Shown here: piece by piece, positions 3,738-12,007 of the stretch
Layout of the letters: each line of letters starts with the position of its first letter
Position numbering within the stretch: the first letter of the stretch is position 1
Origin: a virus
Taxonomy: Duplodnaviria > Heunggongvirae > Uroviricota > Caudoviricetes
IMG/VR virus record: IMGVR_UViG_2648501797_000006
Coordinates: 1 to 24,757 of that record
Direction: 5' to 3' (one strand)
DNA: 24,757 bases
Made by a program: the position numbers and the translations under genes
Notes under the pieces: generated by a model
What the model was told of the DNA's origin: nothing
Seen by the model: the letters and a program-made list of their open reading frames with translations, nothing else
Databases searched by the model: none

Positions 3738-4148
3738 CTACTCCTCCGGCAGTTCAGGCCAGATGACATCCGGTGCGGTGCTGGTATCTGTTGCCGTCAC
3801 AGCGTCGATATAATCCAGCACAACGTTAAGTCGGGTAGTTTCTTCTTGCGTCAGTTTGCGCCCGGCCTGCAGCTTTAACTGAATCACGCTGATATTGACC
3901 ATTGCTGCGTCTATCAGCGACTGTTTTTTTTGTTCAGCGTCAGCTACCAGTTCATCATGAGAACGTTCCGGAGGGAGCGGCGCAGTAAATACCCCGTCTG
4001 AATACCCCCAGCCGATTCCGGGATGCTCACTGATATCAGAAATATCAATGAGCTGCTGATTATCCGGCACTGTGAATTCAGCCTCGCCATCCCAGACAAT
4101 GACATTCACAACCATCCCATTTTCAATAACTGCATATGACGCATTCAT
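3738..4148 (-). CDS. Tail fibre assembly protein (Tfa/gpU-like)
   Basis: C-terminus ...LDYIDAVTATDTSTAPDVIWPELPEE is the conserved Tfa C-terminal motif. Start ATG (complement 4146..4148) follows GAGGAG and overlaps the upstream stop as TAATG. Confidence 0.7.
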   Translation of the reverse strand: MNASYAVIENGMVVNVIVWDGEAEFTVPDNQQLIDISDISEHPGIGWGYSDGVFTAPLPPERSHDELVADAEQKKQSLIDAAMVNISVIQLKLQAGRKLTQEETTRLNVVLDYIDAVTATDTSTAPDVIWPELPEE

Positions 4149-4624
4149 TATGCAAACTCCTCGATAATACAAATCCCAGCAGCACCTTTCCCGCCTGTCA
4201 TACTGGTTCCGCTATAACCGGCATCGTATGCGCCACCGCCACCTGAACCATATACCTTACCACTAACACCACCGCCAGCGCCTGCGCGTCCACCGCCCCC
4301 CCAGTACGATGTTCCGCCTTCACCGCTGACGCCGATATTTCCGGACTGACCGTCGCCTCCATTTCCACCAATGATGTTGATACCGCCAGTACTTGGCACA
4401 CCGCCGTTATCGTCTTCGGTCAGCTCGCTGATGACCGAAAAATCGAACTGATAAATCAGCTCATGACGATTCAGATCCAGCAGCGTGCCGCCGTCATAAG
4501 TAATCGGGTTACCGCACGCTTCCGGGTTCCAGCCCAGAATGGCCTTAAAGAGCATCTGCCGGATATCGTCCACCACATCATACGAGGCAAACTGACCGCG
4601 CTCATCACGCCCGTTCCAGCTCTT
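4148..4624 (-). pseudogene. Tail fibre C-terminal (receptor-binding, Gly-rich) fragment lacking its N-terminal portion
   Basis: Frame is open from 4624 to stop 4148..4150 with only an alternative GTG at 4576; the Gly-rich C-terminus is directly followed by tfa. Upstream is the terminase gene, not the rest of a fibre gene. Confidence 0.6.
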
Positions 4625-6104
4625 TCATCGGGTCGGACATGTTGGTGTAGTTCTGAATGATGGTGATGGGATTCAGGTCTTCATCAGCAAGGTCATGTGA
4701 CAGCCCGGTCGCCCCGAAGGGGTCGATGGGTGACTCGCTGACCGGGCTGATTTTGTTCGCTGCTTTGGCCTCTTCGAGGATGTAGCGATAATCCACCTCT
4801 GCACCATCGGTAACGGTCAGGACGCCCATTTCCACCCATTTCTGAAAGCGTTCGGCTGTCCGGCGATCTTCATTTTTCTCGACGCTGTACACCGTGTCAT
4901 ACGGTACCCAGAAACGCGGGGCCACACTGTAGTAATGCGTTTTACCGTCAATCTCGCGGGTATAAAGTCGCGCCATGCTGTTCATATCCAGCTTACGCGC
5001 CAGGTCAAAGGCCAGAATGCACGGCTGCCCCTCGAACTGCTCAAGGGTCAGTGATTTATCCTCGCAGCTCTGCCAGCTCACCAGGTTGAAATACGCCGAA
5101 CGCGCCGACACCCAGATATTGAGGTGTTTTGTTTTAAAGACGTTTGCCAGACGGGCGTTATTTTTCGCACGCTGCTGCTGACTTAACAAAAATTCGCGAT
5201 AAACCGACACGCCAATATTTGGATTGGCTTTTTCCAGCACCTGCGGGTCGGTCCAGTCGTCACCTTCATCAACGGTATAGATGATCCCGAACAGTTCATC
5301 GTTGGGCACCGAGCCGTTGAGCATCTCGATGACTTCCCGCCGCTTGTCGTAGCACGGCCCCTCAATGTTGTACCCGGCAGTAGTAATGGCCCACATCAGT
5401 GGCTGACGTCGCGCCCCCATCCCGGTAAGCATCGTGGTGTAAAGCGCATCGGTGGCGTGCTCGTGATATTCATCCACCACCGCACAGTGGGGTGATGATC
5501 CATCACCGGGGTTACCGATCAGCGGTTCAAACCGCGCGCCATCCTCCGGACGGTTCATGTTTGAGGCGTTAACCTCAATCCCGAACGCTTCCGTCAGCAT
5601 GGGCGTGCGTTTACACATCAGTCGCGCCGGGCGAAAGACTTCCCACGCCTGTTTCTCTGTCGTGGCACCGGAATACACTTCCGCGCCAAACTCGTTATCA
5701 CAGGCAAAACAATACAGGGCGACACCGGCAGAGATTGCCGATTTGCCGTTCTTACGGGGGATTTCGGTATACACCTCCCGGAAGCGGCGCAGCCGGGAGC
5801 CTTTATTGACCCAGCCAAACGCACAGCAGATCACAAAGAGCTGCCACGGCTCCAGCGTGATGGGCATCCTCTTGAATGCCCACTCACCCTTGGTGTGCGG
5901 CAACAGCTGAATAAATTTGGCGGCTCGTTCAGCCAGGTCCTTGTCGAAGCGGTAACGAAACGACTTACTTTTTTCCGCCATCAGGTCATCAAGATGGCGC
6001 TGGCAGGCCTGAATCACAAACTGGCAGGCCACAATCTTTCCGCGAAAGACATCCCGGGCATACTGATTGGCAGCATTTACGTTGGGGTAAGATTTCCGGC
6101 TCAT
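4605..6104 (-). CDS. Terminase large subunit (Terminase_1-like, 499 aa)
   Basis: 499-aa frame; its ATG overlaps the TerS stop as ATGA (6101..6104). Placed after HNH and TerS as in HK97-type packaging modules. Confidence 0.85.
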
Positions 6105-6595
6105 GATTCGATGATTTTCAGAAACGGGTTAGTAGCTTTCTTCTGCCCCGCCAGGCCAATCAGACGCTGGCGGCTGCTGGGGTCGAGTCCGAGCATTGCC
6201 CCCGTGCTGCTCATCTCGGACTCCTGTTCTTTTTTGGCGGTCAGCTCAGGATTTTTGACCATACCGCCCATTGCACCGGTGATGGTGTTGCCCTGTCTGG
6301 CAATATTTTTCACGGCACGTCGCCAGAACTCATAGGCCACACACCACCGCTCAAGCACCGCGAGGTCAGTCACGCACAGCAGGCCCTGACCGCAAAGTTC
6401 TTTAGTTGTCAATTGCCACATGATCGTGGCGAGAGGGAGATCTTCTTCAGCGAACCACTCCGGTGGCTCAACACCTTTGATGGGCGTAAAAACAGGTTCA
6501 TCTTTATTCAGGGCTCGCTTGCCGGGGTTTCCGGCCAGCGCCTTGCGCGCCGTTGGCTTGGGGCGACGCCCGGAACGCCCCGCCGTTCCAGCCAT
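6101..6595 (-). CDS. Terminase small subunit (P27-like)
   Basis: Basic N-terminus [27 protein letters not shown]...; ATG at complement 6593..6595 with GGAG 8 nt upstream (the track used an upstream GTG). Directly upstream of TerL. Confidence 0.7.
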
Positions 6596-6720
6596 ATGCG
6601 GCACTCCTGGTTAAATTTCATTTTTCGCGGGTATAAAAAAACGATGGGGCGGGCAGTCCTGAAGACGTCAGGGTACAGAGATTTGACCCGCCCCTCCCCT
6701 CTGGCAGTGGGAACTGGTTC

Positions 6721-7071
6721 TTACTTCAGCCGTTCACGGGCCGTCTTCGCCTTATGACACGGCCAGCACAAACTCTGCAGATTACTGTCGACATCAGTGC
6801 CGCCATGCGATTTAGGGATGATGTGGTCAACGGTCTTCGCCTCACGCACCACACCAGCACGCAGACATAACTGACACAGGCCTTTGTCACGCTTCAGGAC
6901 ACGCGCGCGGATACTTTCCCACTTCGAACCGTAGCCGCGCTGATGACGGGATTGTCCAGGTTTGTATTGCTTCCAGCCTTCGCTTTTGTGGCTTTCGCAG
7001 TAGCCTGAAGGGTCCGTGGTTGTAGAGCGGCAGCCGCGAACACGGCAGGCTTTTGGGGTTCGTGGGGGCAT
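6721..7071 (-). CDS. HNH endonuclease (packaging-associated)
   Basis: Cys/His pattern C..C...HIIPKSHGGTDVDSNLQSLCWPCH typical of phage HNH proteins next to terminase genes; GGAG 6 nt before the ATG. Confidence 0.8.
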   Translation of the reverse strand: MPPRTPKACRVRGCRSTTTDPSGYCESHKSEGWKQYKPGQSRHQRGYGSKWESIRARVLKRDKGLCQLCLRAGVVREAKTVDHIIPKSHGGTDVDSNLQSLCWPCHKAKTARERLK

Positions 7072-7595
7072 ATGTACTCCAATGAAGAAACCAGCGAAAT
7101 AGCAGCCTTCATTCGTAGTAAACCTTTTTCATCAACGCAGTAATGGATTCTTTGAAGAGTCGCAATCAATACAACTCACTAATGGAGAGACTTGTCTCAC
7201 GCATGAGACAAATTTCCCGTTTGATTTAATGGACACTATAGAGGGACAGAATGCCTTCCTCACTCGAATCACATCAATTAAGGAGGTTCAACATGTTTCA
7301 TTCCACAAGTCATCAGGCTGTAATTATGGCAGCATCAGTTTGTGCCACAGACCTTTTCCGCTTCACTTTGAGCCTGATTCATTTCTACCTGACCGGCTCG
7401 CCTCTATCTTTTTAATCCCCACTTTATCCAAATTGCATTGCCAGAATGCCGACAACAGACTGACATTCAAATCCTGACTACCTCCAATAGGCTGAGCATC
7501 CACCTATATAGTTTTAATTTTCATCAATCCATTTAACTATCGTTTAATTGTTGTCACATAGGATTCTGCCGTTTTTAACAATGCAGGATAATAAG

Positions 7596-7889
7596 ATGAA
7601 AAAAATGTTGTTTTCTGCCGCTCTGGCAATGCTTATTACAGGATGTGCTCAACAGACGTTTACTGTTGGAAACAAACCGACAGCAGTAACACCAAAGGAA
7701 ACCATCACCCATCATTTCTTCGTTTCGGGAATTGGACAGGAGAAAACTGTTGATGCAGCCAAAATTTGTGGCGGCGCAGAAAATGTTGTTAAAACAGAAA
7801 CCCAGCAAACATTCGTAAATGGATTGCTCGGTTTTATTACCTTAGGCATTTATACTCCGCTGGAAGCGCGGGTGTATTGCTCACAATAA
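7596..7889 (+). CDS. bor: Bor lipoprotein (lambda bor homologue)
   Basis: MKKMLFSAALAMLITGCAQQTFTV...ICGGAENVVKTETQQTFVNGLLGFITLGIYTPLEARVYCSQ is near-identical to lambda Bor as recalled; lipobox LITGC; AGGA upstream of ATG 7596. Confidence 0.9.
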   Translation: MKKMLFSAALAMLITGCAQQTFTVGNKPTAVTPKETITHHFFVSGIGQEKTVDAAKICGGAENVVKTETQQTFVNGLLGFITLGIYTPLEARVYCSQ

Positions 7890-9261: not shown

Positions 9262-10314
9262 TTATTTCCCCACCAGTTCACTTACCTCTTTCACCGTCTG
9301 ATTAAACCGCTCTGACTCAAGTTCAACACCTAACGCCCGACGCCCCAGCGCCATTGCTGCTTTTATTGTGGAACCGGATCCCATAAAGAAATCAGCAACC
9401 AGATCACCAGGTCGACTACTGGCATTGATTATTTGCCGGAGCATATCCGCCGGTTTCTCGCACGGATGTTTACCCGGGTAGAACTGAACGGGCTTATGCG
9501 TCCAGACATCGGTATAAGGCACAGAGACTGATACGGAGAAATAGCGCCGGAGAGATTTAAACTCATCCAGCAATTCAGAATATTTGCGATTCAGTGAATC
9601 ATAAGATGCCACCAGCTGGTGGTGTGGTTGTTCCAGTTGTTGTTCCTGAAACTTCTCTGCCGCTATACGGGAAAACAGTGCCTGTAACTTCCGATAGTCA
9701 GCCTCATTCGGCAACTGCCACTGACTGGCACCAAACCAGTGGGAAACCATATTTTTCTTATCTGTGGCTTCGGCAATTTGTTTTGCCGTTATACCCAGTT
9801 CGGCACGAGCATCCCTGAAATACGATATCAGCGGTGCCATTATGTGCTGTTTGAGTTCCCTTTCTTTTGCCGCATAGTCGTCACTTTTGCCGCGATATGG
9901 CCCCTGGTAATGTTCAGCAAACAGAACGCGCTCTGTGGCAGGAAAATATGCGCGCAGACTTTCTTTATTACACCCATTCCAACGTCCGGACGGCTTCGCC
10001 CAGATGATATGGTTAAGCACGTTGAAACGTTCACGCATCATGATCTCAATATCAGATGCCAGGCGATGCCCACAGAACAGGTAAAGGCTTCCGGCAGGTT
10101 TTAACACCCGCCAGAACTGGGCCAGACAGTGGTCCAGCCACTTAAGGTAATCTTCGTCCCCTTTCCACTGATTGTCCCAACCGTTAGGTTTCACTTTGAA
10201 GTAAGGCGGATCGGTAACAATCAGGTCAATGGAATCATCAGGCAGGGACTGAATAAAATGCAGGCAATCAGCGTTGATTAAATCAACACTGTTTATTTTT
10301 ACAGTATTTTTCAT
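9262..10314 (-). CDS. Orphan DNA methyltransferase (DPPY motif, beta-class N6-adenine or N4-cytosine)
   Basis: IVTDPPYF near the N-terminus and SAM-binding FFMGSGST near the C-terminus (motif IV before motif I). No partner endonuclease recognised nearby. Confidence 0.85.
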   Translation of the reverse strand: MKNTVKINSVDLINADCLHFIQSLPDDSIDLIVTDPPYFKVKPNGWDNQWKGDEDYLKWLDHCLAQFWRVLKPAGSLYLFCGHRLASDIEIMMRERFNVLNHIIWAKPSGRWNGCNKESLRAYFPATERVLFAEHYQGPYRGKSDDYAAKERELKQHIMAPLISYFRDARAELGITAKQIAEATDKKNMVSHWFGASQWQLPNEADYRKLQALFSRIAAEKFQEQQLEQPHHQLVASYDSLNRKYSELLDEFKSLRRYFSVSVSVPYTDVWTHKPVQFYPGKHPCEKPADMLRQIINASSRPGDLVADFFMGSGSTIKAAMALGRRALGVELESERFNQTVKEVSELVGK

Positions 10315-10987: not shown

Positions 10988-12007
10988 TTGGATAAGTTTG
11001 ATGAGATTCATGTAGATATTGAATCTGAGCAGCAAGCCTTCGATTTGCTTGAAAGCTATCTTGATGGTTATGGTTTACCTGACAGTTTAAGTTTCAACGG
11101 ATGGCCAAACCTTACCATCAGATTAACCGGTGAAAAATTCAACAGATCGCTAACACCTTCAGTTATGAAGGGATTTGTTGAAATGCAAGCTCAAATCAAC
11201 AAATCATATGCCCTTGCCAAGTACGGTGTCCCTGACGTCCGCAAACTGACCAAAGAAGAACTTGATGCCCTAGAAATAGAAGTTACGGTAGAACAGGGTT
11301 CTTCAATAGTAGAAATCAACATTGATGGCTTTTTAACCAAACTCACACAGGAACTTGTTGGTAAAATGAACGCAACTGAGATCATGTTTACTGTTCTCGG
11401 CGCAGCAGTCATCTGGGGCGGAGTAACAGTATTTAAACGGTTCTTGGACAACCGTAAAGATATTCGCCTTGCAGAAATTGCTAAGGATGGAGAGAAAGAA
11501 CATCTCCGGACTATGCAGATCATGAGCGAGCAAGAAACTAAACGCCTGCGGGTTATTTCAGAAATGATTGCGGAAAAACCACTTCTCGATAACATGGACC
11601 GTATGTCGTATGACGCTAAAACCCAAATGGTCAAATCCTTTGTGCGTTCAGATAACGCTCAAATTGATGGCGTTACTATTGATTCTGAAATGGCGAAAGA
11701 GTTGGTTACGAATGCTCGTAGACGTTCATCAGAAATGAGGATTGATGGTATTTACCGAATTGAAGAAGTCAATAATACTGACCCAGAGAGTTTCAAAGTT
11801 AAGGTCCGACGCGTAGATACCGACCAACGTCTAACCTGCGTAGTTCAGGATGTTTTCCTTGATGAATCCGGAAACAAAGAAGCATTGCAGCGAGCTGAGT
11901 GGGAAAGAAAGCCTGTACATTTGAGCATTAACGCAAAACACGTCGATGGTGACATTAAGTCAGCAGTAATTCTCTATGTTCGAGATGTGGAACAAAAGCC
12001 CGAGTAA
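10988..12007 (+). CDS. Hypothetical membrane-anchored protein, 339 aa, no family recognised (candidate moron)
   Basis: Only start is TTG at 10988, with GAGGA 7 nt upstream; no in-frame ATG for about 60 codons although the N-terminus reads protein-like. One central hydrophobic segment (IMFTVLGAAVIWGGVTVF) in a charged, helix-rich sequence. Visibly AT-rich versus flanks (not computed). Converges on Q, stops 14 bp apart. Confidence 0.6.
   Translation: MDKFDEIHVDIESEQQAFDLLESYLDGYGLPDSLSFNGWPNLTIRLTGEKFNRSLTPSVMKGFVEMQAQINKSYALAKYGVPDVRKLTKEELDALEIEVTVEQGSSIVEINIDGFLTKLTQELVGKMNATEIMFTVLGAAVIWGGVTVFKRFLDNRKDIRLAEIAKDGEKEHLRTMQIMSEQETKRLRVISEMIAEKPLLDNMDRMSYDAKTQMVKSFVRSDNAQIDGVTIDSEMAKELVTNARRRSSEMRIDGIYRIEEVNNTDPESFKVKVRRVDTDQRLTCVVQDVFLDESGNKEALQRAEWERKPVHLSINAKHVDGDIKSAVILYVRDVEQKPE

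What the first reader, a model, noticed from the sequence alone, without database searches (positions are those of the whole stretch)
6605..6720. GC-rich inverted repeat between HNH and TerS: candidate cos / terminase recognition region
GGGGCGGG (6646..6653) and CCCGCCCC (6687..6694) form an inverted repeat separated by 33 bp, in the gap where HK97-type phages place cos. The first arm with following bases (gggcgggcagtcct) resembles the lambda cohesive-end sequence GGGCGGCGACCT as recalled.
Basis: partly seen in the sequence, partly recalled or inferred. Interest (0 to 1): 0.4.

Follow-up and report, generated by a model that had tools for sequence, protein, structure and literature searches.

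The report
Prophage cos site, HK97/SfV type
The GC-rich repeat lies in the known DNA-packaging cut site (cos) of a very common SfV/P27/HK97-type E. coli prophage, here stranded in a deleted prophage that can no longer package itself, so the finding is correct but ordinary.

Summary
In detail: GGGGCGGG (6646-6653) and CCCGCCCC (6687-6694) are a perfect 8-nt inverted repeat with a 33-nt spacer, between HNH (6721-7071, minus strand) and TerS (6101-6595, minus strand).

The cos interpretation is supported. On the gene-sense (minus) strand the gap reads ...GGAC|TGCCCGCCCC|ATCG.... TGCCCGCCCC is exactly the 10-nt cohesive end mapped by run-off sequencing of SfI virion DNA. The annotated cos of phiP27 and the record ends of HK97, EPP-1 and Bacillus phage Gamma fall at the homologous position. 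The cohesive end is therefore window 6646-6655, probably a 3' overhang.

The other arm belongs to a conserved upstream box, GGGGAGGGGCGGGTCAAATC (6680-6699), found 30±1 nt upstream of the cut even in Bacillus phages.

The inverted repeat itself is probably not selected. Complementarity is lost without compensation in 33 of 88 related sites, folding is no better than shuffles, and about 5% of shuffled gaps contain such a repeat. The lambda resemblance is at chance level.

The prophage is defective: TerL is truncated and the head and tail genes are deleted. The same gap occurs in 1,256 of 5,426 complete E. coli genomes.

Verdict: already known, low interest. One modestly new lead is that the inferred bottom-strand nick (AC^TG) matches the known nicking motif of cos-adjacent HNH enzymes.

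The parts
6721..7071 (-). HNH endonuclease gene (116 aa) with an N-terminal zinc-ribbon-like motif (CRVRGC...CESH). It is the accessory nuclease of the packaging module.
   Evidence: Pfam HNH PF01844, E 7.6e-17. BLASTP against HK97 gp74 gives E 7e-10. BLASTP against the characterised nickase N.phiGamma gives E 4e-17, 35% identity.
6680..6699 (-). Conserved upstream box; the sense strand reads GGGGAGGGGCGGGTCAAATC. It contains the HNH-proximal arm of the inverted repeat (6687-6694). Its function is inferred: a cosQ-like or nuclease-positioning site.
   Evidence: Invariant or nearly so in SfI, SfV, P27, Klebsiella phages and HK97. It is 18/18 identical to the box downstream of HNH in relatives of Bacillus phage Gamma. 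It always lies 30±1 nt upstream of the AC^YG junction.
6656..6679 (-). Variable spacer of conserved length (sense TCTGTACCCTGACGTCTTCAGGAC), ending in the conserved GAC.
   Evidence: Most of the sequence variation among 88 unique cos regions lies here, while the length is fixed. The inner CCTGA/TCAGG palindrome is specific to the window and a few variants; most relatives read TCCGG.
6646..6655 (-). Cohesive end (cosN equivalent): sense TGCCCGCCCC, plus-strand GGGGCGGGCA. It contains the TerS-proximal arm of the inverted repeat (6646-6653). The inferred nicks are between 6646|6645 on the sense strand and between 6655|6656 on the plus strand, giving 10-nt 3' overhangs.
   Evidence: Identical to the 10-nt gap found by run-off sequencing of SfI virion DNA. 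Homologous to the phiP27 cos-site CGCCCGCCCC. The HK97, EPP-1 and Gamma record ends fall at the same position. HK97 has 10-nt 3' overhangs.
6617..6641 (-). TerS-proximal region: a T7 run (+5..+11) followed by ATACCCGCGAAAAATGAA (+12..+29). This is the predicted TerS-binding (cosB-like) site.
   Evidence: Nearly invariant in all relatives that have Terminase_4 TerS. It lies at the same distance as the mapped HK97 TerS site (+15..+29, CTAACCCGATTTTTT). It is replaced by different DNA where the TerS N-terminus differs (L188). Binding is inferred, not shown.
6101..6595 (-). Small terminase gene (P27 family, 164 aa), intact. AGGAG Shine-Dalgarno at 6604-6608.
   Evidence: Pfam Terminase_4, E 2.4e-21. 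100% identical to TerS in more than 60 IMG/VR contigs. PGAP annotates it as 'phage terminase small subunit P27 family' in the intact relative.
4605..6104 (-). Large terminase gene truncated at the C-terminus (499 of 577 aa; the nuclease domain is incomplete).
   Evidence: Pfam TerL_ATPase, plus TerL_nuclease covering only profile positions 4-225 of 286. The deletion junction is at window 4611-4615 relative to the intact prophage. BLASTP against HK97 gp2 gives E 2e-20.

Best explanation
The gap is the cos (cohesive-end) site of an SfV/SfI/phiP27-type temperate phage that uses the HK97-style, HNH-assisted terminase system.

Read on the gene-sense (minus) strand, the layout is:
- HNH stop codon
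- conserved box GGGGAGGGGCGGGTCAAATC (6680-6699)
- 24-nt spacer ending in GAC
- 10-nt cohesive end TGCCCGCCCC (6646-6655)
- T7 run and ACCCGCGAAAAAT (6617-6641)
- Shine-Dalgarno and TerS ATG

In an intact phage, TerS would bind just downstream of the cut. TerL together with HNH would make two staggered nicks: after ...CCCC on the sense strand, and after GGGGCGGGCA on the other strand. This leaves 10-nt 3' overhangs. DNA would then be packaged starting from the TerS side.

Their complementarity is most likely a by-product, not a hairpin or a symmetric site that selection maintains.

In this window the site is a relic. The prophage has lost the TerL C-terminus, portal, protease, capsid and most tail genes, so the site could only be used in trans by a related helper phage.

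What is shown: sequence identity to a mapped cos, positional homology, and the deletions. What is inferred: the nick positions and polarity in this element, the TerS site, and the role of the G-box.
For: - The window's sense strand contains the exact SfI cohesive end TGCCCGCCCC in the same context. In SfI it was mapped as a 10-nt gap between run-off reads from virion DNA (PMC3636060). A gap rather than an overlap implies 3' overhangs.
- phiP27 carries an annotated cos-site, CGCCCGCCCC, at the homologous position.
- The HK97 record ends at ...GACCGCCGCCAAA and starts at GTTTG..., aligning to the same junction. HK97 has 10-nt 3' overhangs, and gp74 HNH stimulates cos cleavage (PMC11331095 and PMC9410871).
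- The EPP-1 and phage Gamma records break at the same place.
- TerL and HNH are homologous to those of HK97, and the HNH is homologous to N.phiGamma.
- The cos gap is 100% identical to that of an intact 38-kb prophage at thrW/proA in E. coli 123636.
- The gap occurs in 1,256 of 5,426 complete E. coli genomes.
- Against selection on the repeat itself: 33 of 88 unique cos regions have 7 or fewer of 8 complementary positions, and 17 have 5 or fewer, with no consistent compensation. Prophages with identical TerS carry GGGGGAGG paired with CCCGCCCC. phi105 has a C-rich box instead of a G-rich one.
- For defectiveness: the window equals the intact prophage minus 10.1 kb and 5.2 kb.
Against: - No end-mapping exists for this element. 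All evidence for the cut position comes by homology.
- The SfV and SfIV records break 17 nt further upstream. The SfI paper describes the SfV cos as postulated rather than mapped.
- The 3' polarity for SfI is my inference from the word 'gap'. The authors do not state the polarity.
- The window's TerS shows no detectable similarity to HK97 gp1, so transfer of the +15..+29 TerS site is weak.
- The 8/8 repeat is retained in 55 of 88 sites and a 7/7 version exists in phage Gamma. Some role for the symmetry therefore cannot be excluded. The 88-site set is dominated by close relatives and was collected with a pattern that fixes TCAAATC and GACNGCCNGCC.
Confidence: 0.88

Rival explanations
1. The inverted repeat forms a stem-loop in the late transcript. 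Followed by AUCGUUUUUUU, it would act as an intrinsic terminator or attenuator between the lysis/HNH genes and the terminase genes.
For: On the sense strand the repeat is followed, after 4 nt, by a T7 run. The minimum-free-energy fold pairs the two arms.
Against: - The terminator scan finds nothing in 6000-7600.
- The loop is 33 nt, and the fold energy is not better than shuffles (z -0.78 as RNA, -1.66 as DNA).
- There is no Rfam match.
- Stem complementarity is lost without compensation in 33 of 88 relatives.
- In HK97 the T-run lies at +24..+30, inside the mapped TerS site, and is not adjacent to a stem.
- Head genes must be transcribed through cos in the circularised or concatemeric genome.
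Confidence: 0.04
2. The two arms are symmetric half-sites for one dimeric protein (TerL, HNH or a host factor). The protein would bridge the G-box and the cohesive end, about 41 bp or four helical turns apart, so the inverted symmetry would be functional even though it is degenerate.
For: - GGGGCGG(G)/(C)CCGCCCC is present in both the E. coli elements and Bacillus phage Gamma.
- Many cohesive ends in distant lineages end in CCCC, opposite a GGGG in the box.
- The box-to-cut spacing is fixed at 30±1 nt.
Against: - HK97 (G9 against CGCCGCCAAA), the Klebsiella phages and EPP-1 lack the symmetry, as do many E. coli variants with identical TerS.
- phi105 has a C-rich box in the same place.
- The symmetry centre (about 6670) is 15-25 bp away from both nicks. 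This is unlike lambda cosN, where the symmetry is centred on the cut.
Confidence: 0.1
3. The repeat is a chance feature of GC-rich intergenic DNA with no packaging role, and cos lies elsewhere, for example at the SfV/SfIV record break 17 nt upstream or next to the TerS start as in the SfII and ST64B records.
For: An 8-nt inverted repeat arises in 5.3% of shuffled gaps. Several deposited records break at other positions in or near the gap.
Against: Both arms lie in blocks conserved across enterobacterial and Bacillus phages. The only experimentally mapped end in close relatives (SfI) and the explicit P27 annotation both coincide with one arm. [quoted passage not shown]
Confidence: 0.03

Closest known systems
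cos site of Shigella/E. coli phages SfI, SfV, SfII and SfIV, and Stx2e phage phiP27
   Same: - Same gene order: HNH, cos, then TerS (P27 family) and TerL.
- The gap is 90-97% identical to these phages.
- The 10-nt cohesive end TGCCCGCCCC is identical to SfI (P27 has CGCCCGCCCC).
- Same upstream box and same TerS-side sequence.
   Different: A few spacer substitutions (for example TTCAGG instead of TTCCGG) and A instead of G at +1 relative to SfI. The element here sits in a prophage with a truncated TerL and no head or tail genes, so it is not part of a working phage.
HK97 cos (10-nt 3' overhang; gp74 HNH-assisted cleavage; TerS site at +15..+29)
   Same: - Position between HNH and TerS.
- TerL and HNH are homologous.
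- Shared G-tract plus (A)TCAAATC box about 31 nt upstream of GAC|CGCC.
- An ACCCG core plus an A/T tract lies 15-30 nt downstream of the cut.
   Different: - The cohesive-end sequence differs (CGCCGCCAAA).
- TerS is unrelated at sequence level (HK97 gp1 has no Pfam family).
- HK97 gp74 lacks the N-terminal zinc ribbon.
- No inverted-repeat relation exists between the box and the cohesive end.
Bacillus phage Gamma / Wbeta-type cos with the N.phiGamma HNH nickase
   Same: - GGGGCGGGTC box, 31-nt distance, GTAC|CGCCGCCCC junction, C-rich cohesive end, and HNH immediately upstream.
- The HNH proteins are 35% identical (E 4e-17).
- The N.phiGamma nick site CG|GT (AC^CG) matches the inferred bottom-strand nick.
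   Different: - Gram-positive host.
- 9-nt terminal sequence in the record.
- The TerS-side DNA is unrelated, and TerS is not detectably similar.
Lambda cos (cosQ-cosN-cosB)
   Same: The functional logic is the same: an upstream termination element, a nick site, and a TerS-binding region next to the TerS gene. The cohesive end is G/C-rich.
   Different: - No significant sequence similarity.
- Lambda has a 12-nt 5' overhang; this family has a 10-nt 3' overhang.
- Lambda uses Nu1-type TerS and has no HNH.
- In lambda the G-rich strand reads towards the TerS gene; here it reads away from it.

Membership tests
HK97/P27-type HNH-associated cos site | Located in the intergenic gap between an HNH endonuclease gene and the small terminase gene, with an HK97-type TerL downstream | tested here: met
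   HNH PF01844, TerS PF05119, and TerL PF03354 plus PF20441, all on the minus strand in that order. TerL against HK97 gp2 gives E 2e-20 and HNH against gp74 gives E 7e-10.
HK97/P27-type HNH-associated cos site | Sequence homologous to an experimentally mapped cohesive end | tested here: met
   TGCCCGCCCC is identical to the SfI cos mapped by run-off sequencing. It aligns with the P27 cos-site feature and with the HK97, EPP-1 and Gamma termini.
HK97/P27-type HNH-associated cos site | Cleavage yields 10-nt 3' protruding ends at this position | not testable with these tools
   This needs virion DNA. The polarity is inferred from HK97 and from the 'gap' result for SfI. This element has a truncated TerL.
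HK97/P27-type HNH-associated cos site | A specific TerS-binding site a few turns downstream of the cut | tested here: inconclusive
   A conserved ATACCCGCGAAAAAT lies at +12..+26, resembling the position and composition of the HK97 site. However, the two TerS proteins are not detectably related, and binding was not tested.
Functional (self-packaging) prophage | Intact TerL, portal, protease, capsid and tail genes | tested here: not met
   Relative to the intact prophage in E. coli 123636, the window lacks L013 5027-15144 and 15353-20556. TerL is 499 of 577 aa.
Lambda-type cos | Sequence similarity to lambda cosN/cosB, and a Nu1-type TerS | tested here: not met
   Only the GGGCGG hexamer is shared, and 57% of shuffles match it. 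The best local alignment of the gap to lambda 1-190 is reached by 31% of shuffles. TerS is Terminase_4.
Intrinsic (rho-independent) terminator | Short GC-rich hairpin with a small loop, directly followed by a U-run and conserved as a structure | tested here: not met
   No call by the scanner. The loop is 33 nt and z is -0.78. No covariation was found, and there is no Rfam hit.
Group 1 zinc-ribbon HNH nicking endonucleases (Xu & Gupta 2013) | N-terminal zinc-ribbon motifs plus a C-terminal HNH domain, encoded next to cos and terminase, nicking at CG|GT-like sites | tested here: inconclusive
   CRVRGC and CESH motifs are followed by an HNH domain. BLASTP against N.phiGamma gives E 4e-17. The inferred bottom-strand nick GGCA|GTCC fits S|RT and CA|GT variants of the motif. 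Nicking activity was not tested.

The most novel reading that the evidence does not exclude
HNH-assisted cos sites may share an undescribed, deeply conserved architecture. It consists of a G-rich box ending in T(C/A)AAA (GGGGAGGGGCGGGTCAAA, 18/18 identical between this E. coli prophage and relatives of Bacillus phage Gamma), placed 30±1 nt (three helical turns) upstream of an AC^YG junction. AC^YG is the biochemically defined nick site of cos-adjacent zinc-ribbon HNH nickases. On this reading the HNH enzyme, positioned from the box, cuts the bottom strand, and TerL cuts the top strand 10 nt away. That would answer the question left open for HK97 of which nuclease makes which nick.
Probability: 0.3. 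Interest if true: 0.5.

Novelty: already known. Interest (0 to 1): 0.22.

Why it matters
As a finding about this window it matters little. It correctly locates the packaging site of a very common E. coli prophage family whose cos was mapped in 2013 (SfI) and annotated in 2002 (P27), and here the site is a relic in a deleted prophage.

It has practical value for annotation. It fixes the true genome ends for this phage family at window-equivalent 6646-6655, whereas several public records (SfV, SfIV, SfII, ST64B) are broken at other, arbitrary positions.

It also marks a chromosomal cos that a related helper phage could in principle recognise.

The comparative by-product could be useful to people working on HK97-type packaging, because it suggests simple mutational and nicking experiments. 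That by-product is the cross-phylum G-box at fixed spacing, together with the coincidence of the inferred nick with the HNH nicking motif.

Tried and rejected
- **Intrinsic terminator or RNA element.** The terminator scan found nothing. Folds were no better than shuffles. Rfam was empty.
- **Lambda homology.** The cosN 12-mer and the whole lambda 1-190 region were both at chance level. A similarity I noticed by eye (ATGAAAATTTTCC against ATGAAATTTAACC) did not survive the shuffle test.
- **Transfer of HK97 TerS contact residues (Arg7, Arg128).** Abandoned because the two TerS proteins show no BLASTP similarity and HK97 gp1 has no Pfam family.
- **Covariation support for the inverted repeat.** None was found. 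A single GGGGGAGG/CCTGCCCC case looks compensatory, but 13 other GGGGGAGG or AGGGGAGG sites keep C at the partner position.
- **Inner palindrome CCTGA...TCAGG in the spacer.** Not conserved; most relatives read TCCGG.
- **Geobacillus virus E2 termini as an independent check.** The record is linearised inside the HNH gene, so it is uninformative.
- **phi105 as an independent check of AC^YG.** Only a near-match: GAC^CG overlaps the annotated 7-nt cos boundary but is offset by 1 nt.
- **First TerS-based locus scan.** It returned only TerS proteins 99-100% identical to the window's and was useful only for microvariation.
- **Literature.** Allison 2002 (SfV), Kala 2014 (HK97 gp74) and the P27 genome paper are not held. 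String searches for the cohesive-end sequences and for GGGGCGGG returned only irrelevant papers.

Full report
**1. Observation**

The sequence shows GGGGCGGG at 6646-6653 and CCCGCCCC at 6687-6694. The repeat finder reports an 8-nt, 100% complementary inverted repeat with 33 nt between the arms. The exact pattern is unique in the window and absent from 100 shuffles.

A fairer null asks for any perfect 8-nt inverted repeat with a 3-40 nt spacer. It succeeds in 5.3% of dinucleotide shuffles of the gap, and the window contains about 28 other such repeats. The repeat is real but not remarkable by statistics alone.

All flanking genes are on the minus strand: HNH 6721-7071, TerS 6101-6595 and TerL 4605-6104. 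I take the TerS start to be the ATG at 6595, as annotated in SfI, SfV and by PGAP. The AGGAG Shine-Dalgarno lies at 6604-6608.

**2. What it is**

A megablast of the region against phage records showed that the linear records of SfI, SfIV, SfV, SfII and ST64B end inside or beside this gap. Read on the sense (minus) strand, the window is:

...GAGGGGAGGGGCGGGTCAAATCTCTGTACCCTGACGTCTTCAGGAC TGCCCGCCCC ATCGTTTTTTTATACCCGCGAAAAATGAAATTTAACCAGGAGTGCCGCATATG

The SfI paper reports direct sequencing of the termini of virion DNA. Compared with the prophage, there was "a 10 nucleotide (5'-TGCCCGCCCC-3') gap" (PMC3636060). That decamer is present unchanged in the window at 6646-6655, and the SfI record ends exactly after it.

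Four further lines agree:
- phiP27 carries a misc_feature "cos-site", CGCCCGCCCC, at the homologous position.
- The HK97 record ends ...ATGACCGCCGCCAAA and begins GTTTGAATTT..., which aligns to the same junction.
- The Edwardsiella phage EPP-1 record ends ...GTACTGCCCGCCTC and begins CCCCAATTTTTATGACCGCGAAAAATG.
- Bacillus phage Gamma carries CGCCGCCCC at both record ends, preceded by GTAC.

The SfV and SfIV records break 17 nt further upstream. However, the SfI authors describe the SfV cos as postulated, and both the SfI and SfIV papers say their records were linearised artificially.

I conclude that 6646-6655 is the cohesive end.

**3. Polarity and nick positions (inferred)**

HK97 has 10-nt 3' overhangs (PMC11331095 and PMC9410871). 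In SfI the two run-off reads left a gap rather than an overlap. That is expected only if neither template strand carries the decamer at its 5' end, which means 3' overhangs.

Numbering in the HK97 paper (T16 and the A-tract in CTAACCCGATTTTTT) matches record position 1 as +1. The sense-strand nick therefore lies between window 6646 and 6645, and the plus-strand nick between 6655 and 6656.

**4. The other arm**

The HNH-proximal arm is part of a box, GGGGAGGGGCGGGTCAAATC (6680-6699). This box is invariant or nearly so in SfI, SfV, P27, the Klebsiella phages and HK97 (GGGGGGGGGATCAAATC).

The box recurs downstream of HNH in Bacillus phage Gamma (GGGGCGGGTCGAAA). It also recurs in IMG/VR loci encoding relatives of the Gamma HNH at 50-60% identity (GGGGAGGGGCGGGTCAAAAA, 18/18 identical to the window). 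The HNH proteins themselves are only 35% identical.

The distance from the box to the (G/T)AC preceding the cohesive end is 30±1 nt in all of these. phi105 has TTAAATCCCT exactly 31 nt upstream of its annotated cos, but preceded by a C-rich tract.

I found no description of this box in the held HK97 or HNH literature. That is not proof that it is undescribed.

**5. Is the inverted repeat itself functional?**

Probably not.
- Among 88 unique cos regions, 55 have 8/8 complementarity and these are mostly near-identical relatives. Seven have 7/8, nine have 6/8, sixteen have 5/8 and one has 4/8, without consistent compensation.
- Prophages whose TerS is 100% identical to the window's carry GGGGGAGG opposite CCCGCCCC.
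- HK97, the Klebsiella phages, EPP-1 and phi105 lack the symmetry.
- Folding of the sense strand is no better than shuffles (z -0.78 as RNA, -1.66 as DNA).
- No terminator is called and Rfam is empty.

Caveat: the 88-site set was collected with a pattern that fixes TCAAATC and GACNGCCNGCC, and it is dominated by enterobacterial prophages.

**6. Modularity**

TerL and HNH are homologous to HK97 gp2 (E 2e-20) and gp74 (E 7e-10). This parallels the shared box and cut site.

TerS is a Terminase_4/P27-family protein with no detectable similarity to HK97 gp1 or to the Gamma TerS. This parallels the unrelated DNA on the TerS side of the cut.

Loci such as L188 keep HNH, the box, the cut site and TerL, but have a different TerS N-terminus and different TerS-side DNA.

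In the window, the TerS-side block T7-ATACCCGCGAAAAATGAA (6617-6641) is almost invariant among relatives with Terminase_4 TerS. It sits at the same distance from the cut as the mapped HK97 TerS site (+15..+29). I therefore predict it is the TerS-binding site. This is an inference only.

**7. A mechanistic lead**

Xu & Gupta (PMC3592412) showed that cos-adjacent zinc-ribbon HNH enzymes are strand-specific nickases that cut CG|GT, written AC^CG on the other strand. Variants include YG|GTY, BG|GT, S|RT and an off-target CA|GT.

The window's HNH has the N-terminal CxxxxC...CxxH motifs and matches N.phiGamma at E 4e-17.

The inferred bottom-strand nick is:
- GGAC^TGCC in the window and SfI
- GAC^CGCC in P27, HK97 and the Klebsiella phages
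- GTAC^CGCC in Gamma

These have the same motif and the same nick position. phi105 is off by one nucleotide.

[quoted passage not shown] It is a post-hoc match to a 4-bp motif in homologous sites, so I rate it as a lead.

**8. Context**

The window is a deletion derivative of an SfV-like prophage at thrW/proA. It aligns at 99.9% to a 38-kb intact prophage in E. coli 123636, except for two missing blocks, L013 5027-15144 and 15353-20556.

The deletions remove the TerL C-terminus (499 of 577 aa), portal, protease, capsid, connectors, sheath, tube, tape measure and baseplate. A 208-bp tail-terminator fragment is left behind. The same TerL junction is seen in strains W21 and PCN061.

The cos gap itself is 100% identical to that of the intact prophage, and HNH and TerS are intact. 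The site is therefore sequence-competent, but the element cannot package itself. No second cos is present in the window.

The gap occurs in 1,256 of 5,426 complete E. coli genomes.

**9. Comparison and verdict**

This is a copy of the already characterised cos of the SfI/SfV/P27 group, belonging to the HK97-type HNH-assisted packaging systems. It is not lambda-like in sequence, polarity or TerS type.

The lambda argument and the emphasis on the inverted repeat are not supported.

Novelty: already known. Interest is low. The only new angle is the cross-phylum box, its fixed spacing and the nick-motif observation, which would need experiments to matter.

Noticed in passing
window 4408-4615 and 4605-6104: Two internal deletions relative to an intact prophage (10.1 kb of tail genes; 5.2 kb from the tail terminator to the TerL 3' end). 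They leave a 208-bp tail-terminator fragment fused to a glycine-rich tail-fibre ORF (4148-4576) and a TerL truncated to 499 aa. The same TerL junction is present in E. coli W21 and PCN061.
   Followed up: yes
window 7548-7889 (+): A Bor/Iss lipoprotein gene (PF06291, E 1e-30; annotated iss in the relative) on the opposite strand between the lysis cassette and HNH. It is a serum-resistance moron just upstream of the packaging module.
   Followed up: partly
window 10988-12007 (+): A 339-aa ORF on the plus strand, alone among minus-strand late genes between the antiterminator Q gene and the DNA methylase gene. It has no Pfam family above threshold and no PADLOC hit, and is annotated hypothetical in the relative. 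It could be a moron or an accessory gene.
   Followed up: partly
window 9262-10314 (-): An N6/N4 DNA methyltransferase (PF01555, E 1e-42) encoded immediately upstream of the holin gene in the late region.
   Followed up: no
L200 and L156 (IMG/VR contigs), cos core at about 496-639 of the extracted stretches: The same box, cos core and first ~30 nt of TerS-side DNA abut host DNA about 0.5 kb upstream of a ClpS-like gene, with no HNH or TerS nearby. These are isolated cos relics at another chromosomal site.
   Followed up: partly
L122 3500-3538 and 6371-6409: Two copies of the HNH-cos-TerS module in the same orientation, 2.9 kb apart, separated by an IS-like two-ORF element. This could be a duplication, adjacent prophages or an assembly artefact. 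Two same-orientation cos sites this close would be relevant to packaging.
   Followed up: partly
L270/L269 (phi105 NC_004167 ends): phi105 has TTAAATCCCT exactly 31 nt upstream of its annotated 7-nt cos, but preceded by CCCCCCACCC rather than a G-tract. The N.phi105 motif RAC^CR overlaps the cos boundary with a 1-nt offset.
   Followed up: partly
U82619.2 / KC814930 (SfV, SfIV), KC736978 (SfII), AY055382 (ST64B) record ends: Public records of close relatives are broken at different positions within or beside the cos gap: 17 nt upstream of the SfI-mapped end, just after the HNH stop, or just before TerS. Their first and last bases should not be read as physical termini.
   Followed up: yes
H81, NZ_CP081704.1 (E. 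coli AH02, 43,680-bp record): A 43.7-kb separate replicon record in a complete E. coli assembly ends at the position equivalent to window 6663, the SfV-style break. This suggests a phage genome of this family assembled as an extrachromosomal molecule.
   Followed up: no
L009 (ON470584.1, vB_EcoM-689R6) cos gap: This deposited phage record has a run of N between the TerS-side cos sequence and the TerS start. An assembly gap exactly at cos is consistent with physical ends there.
   Followed up: no
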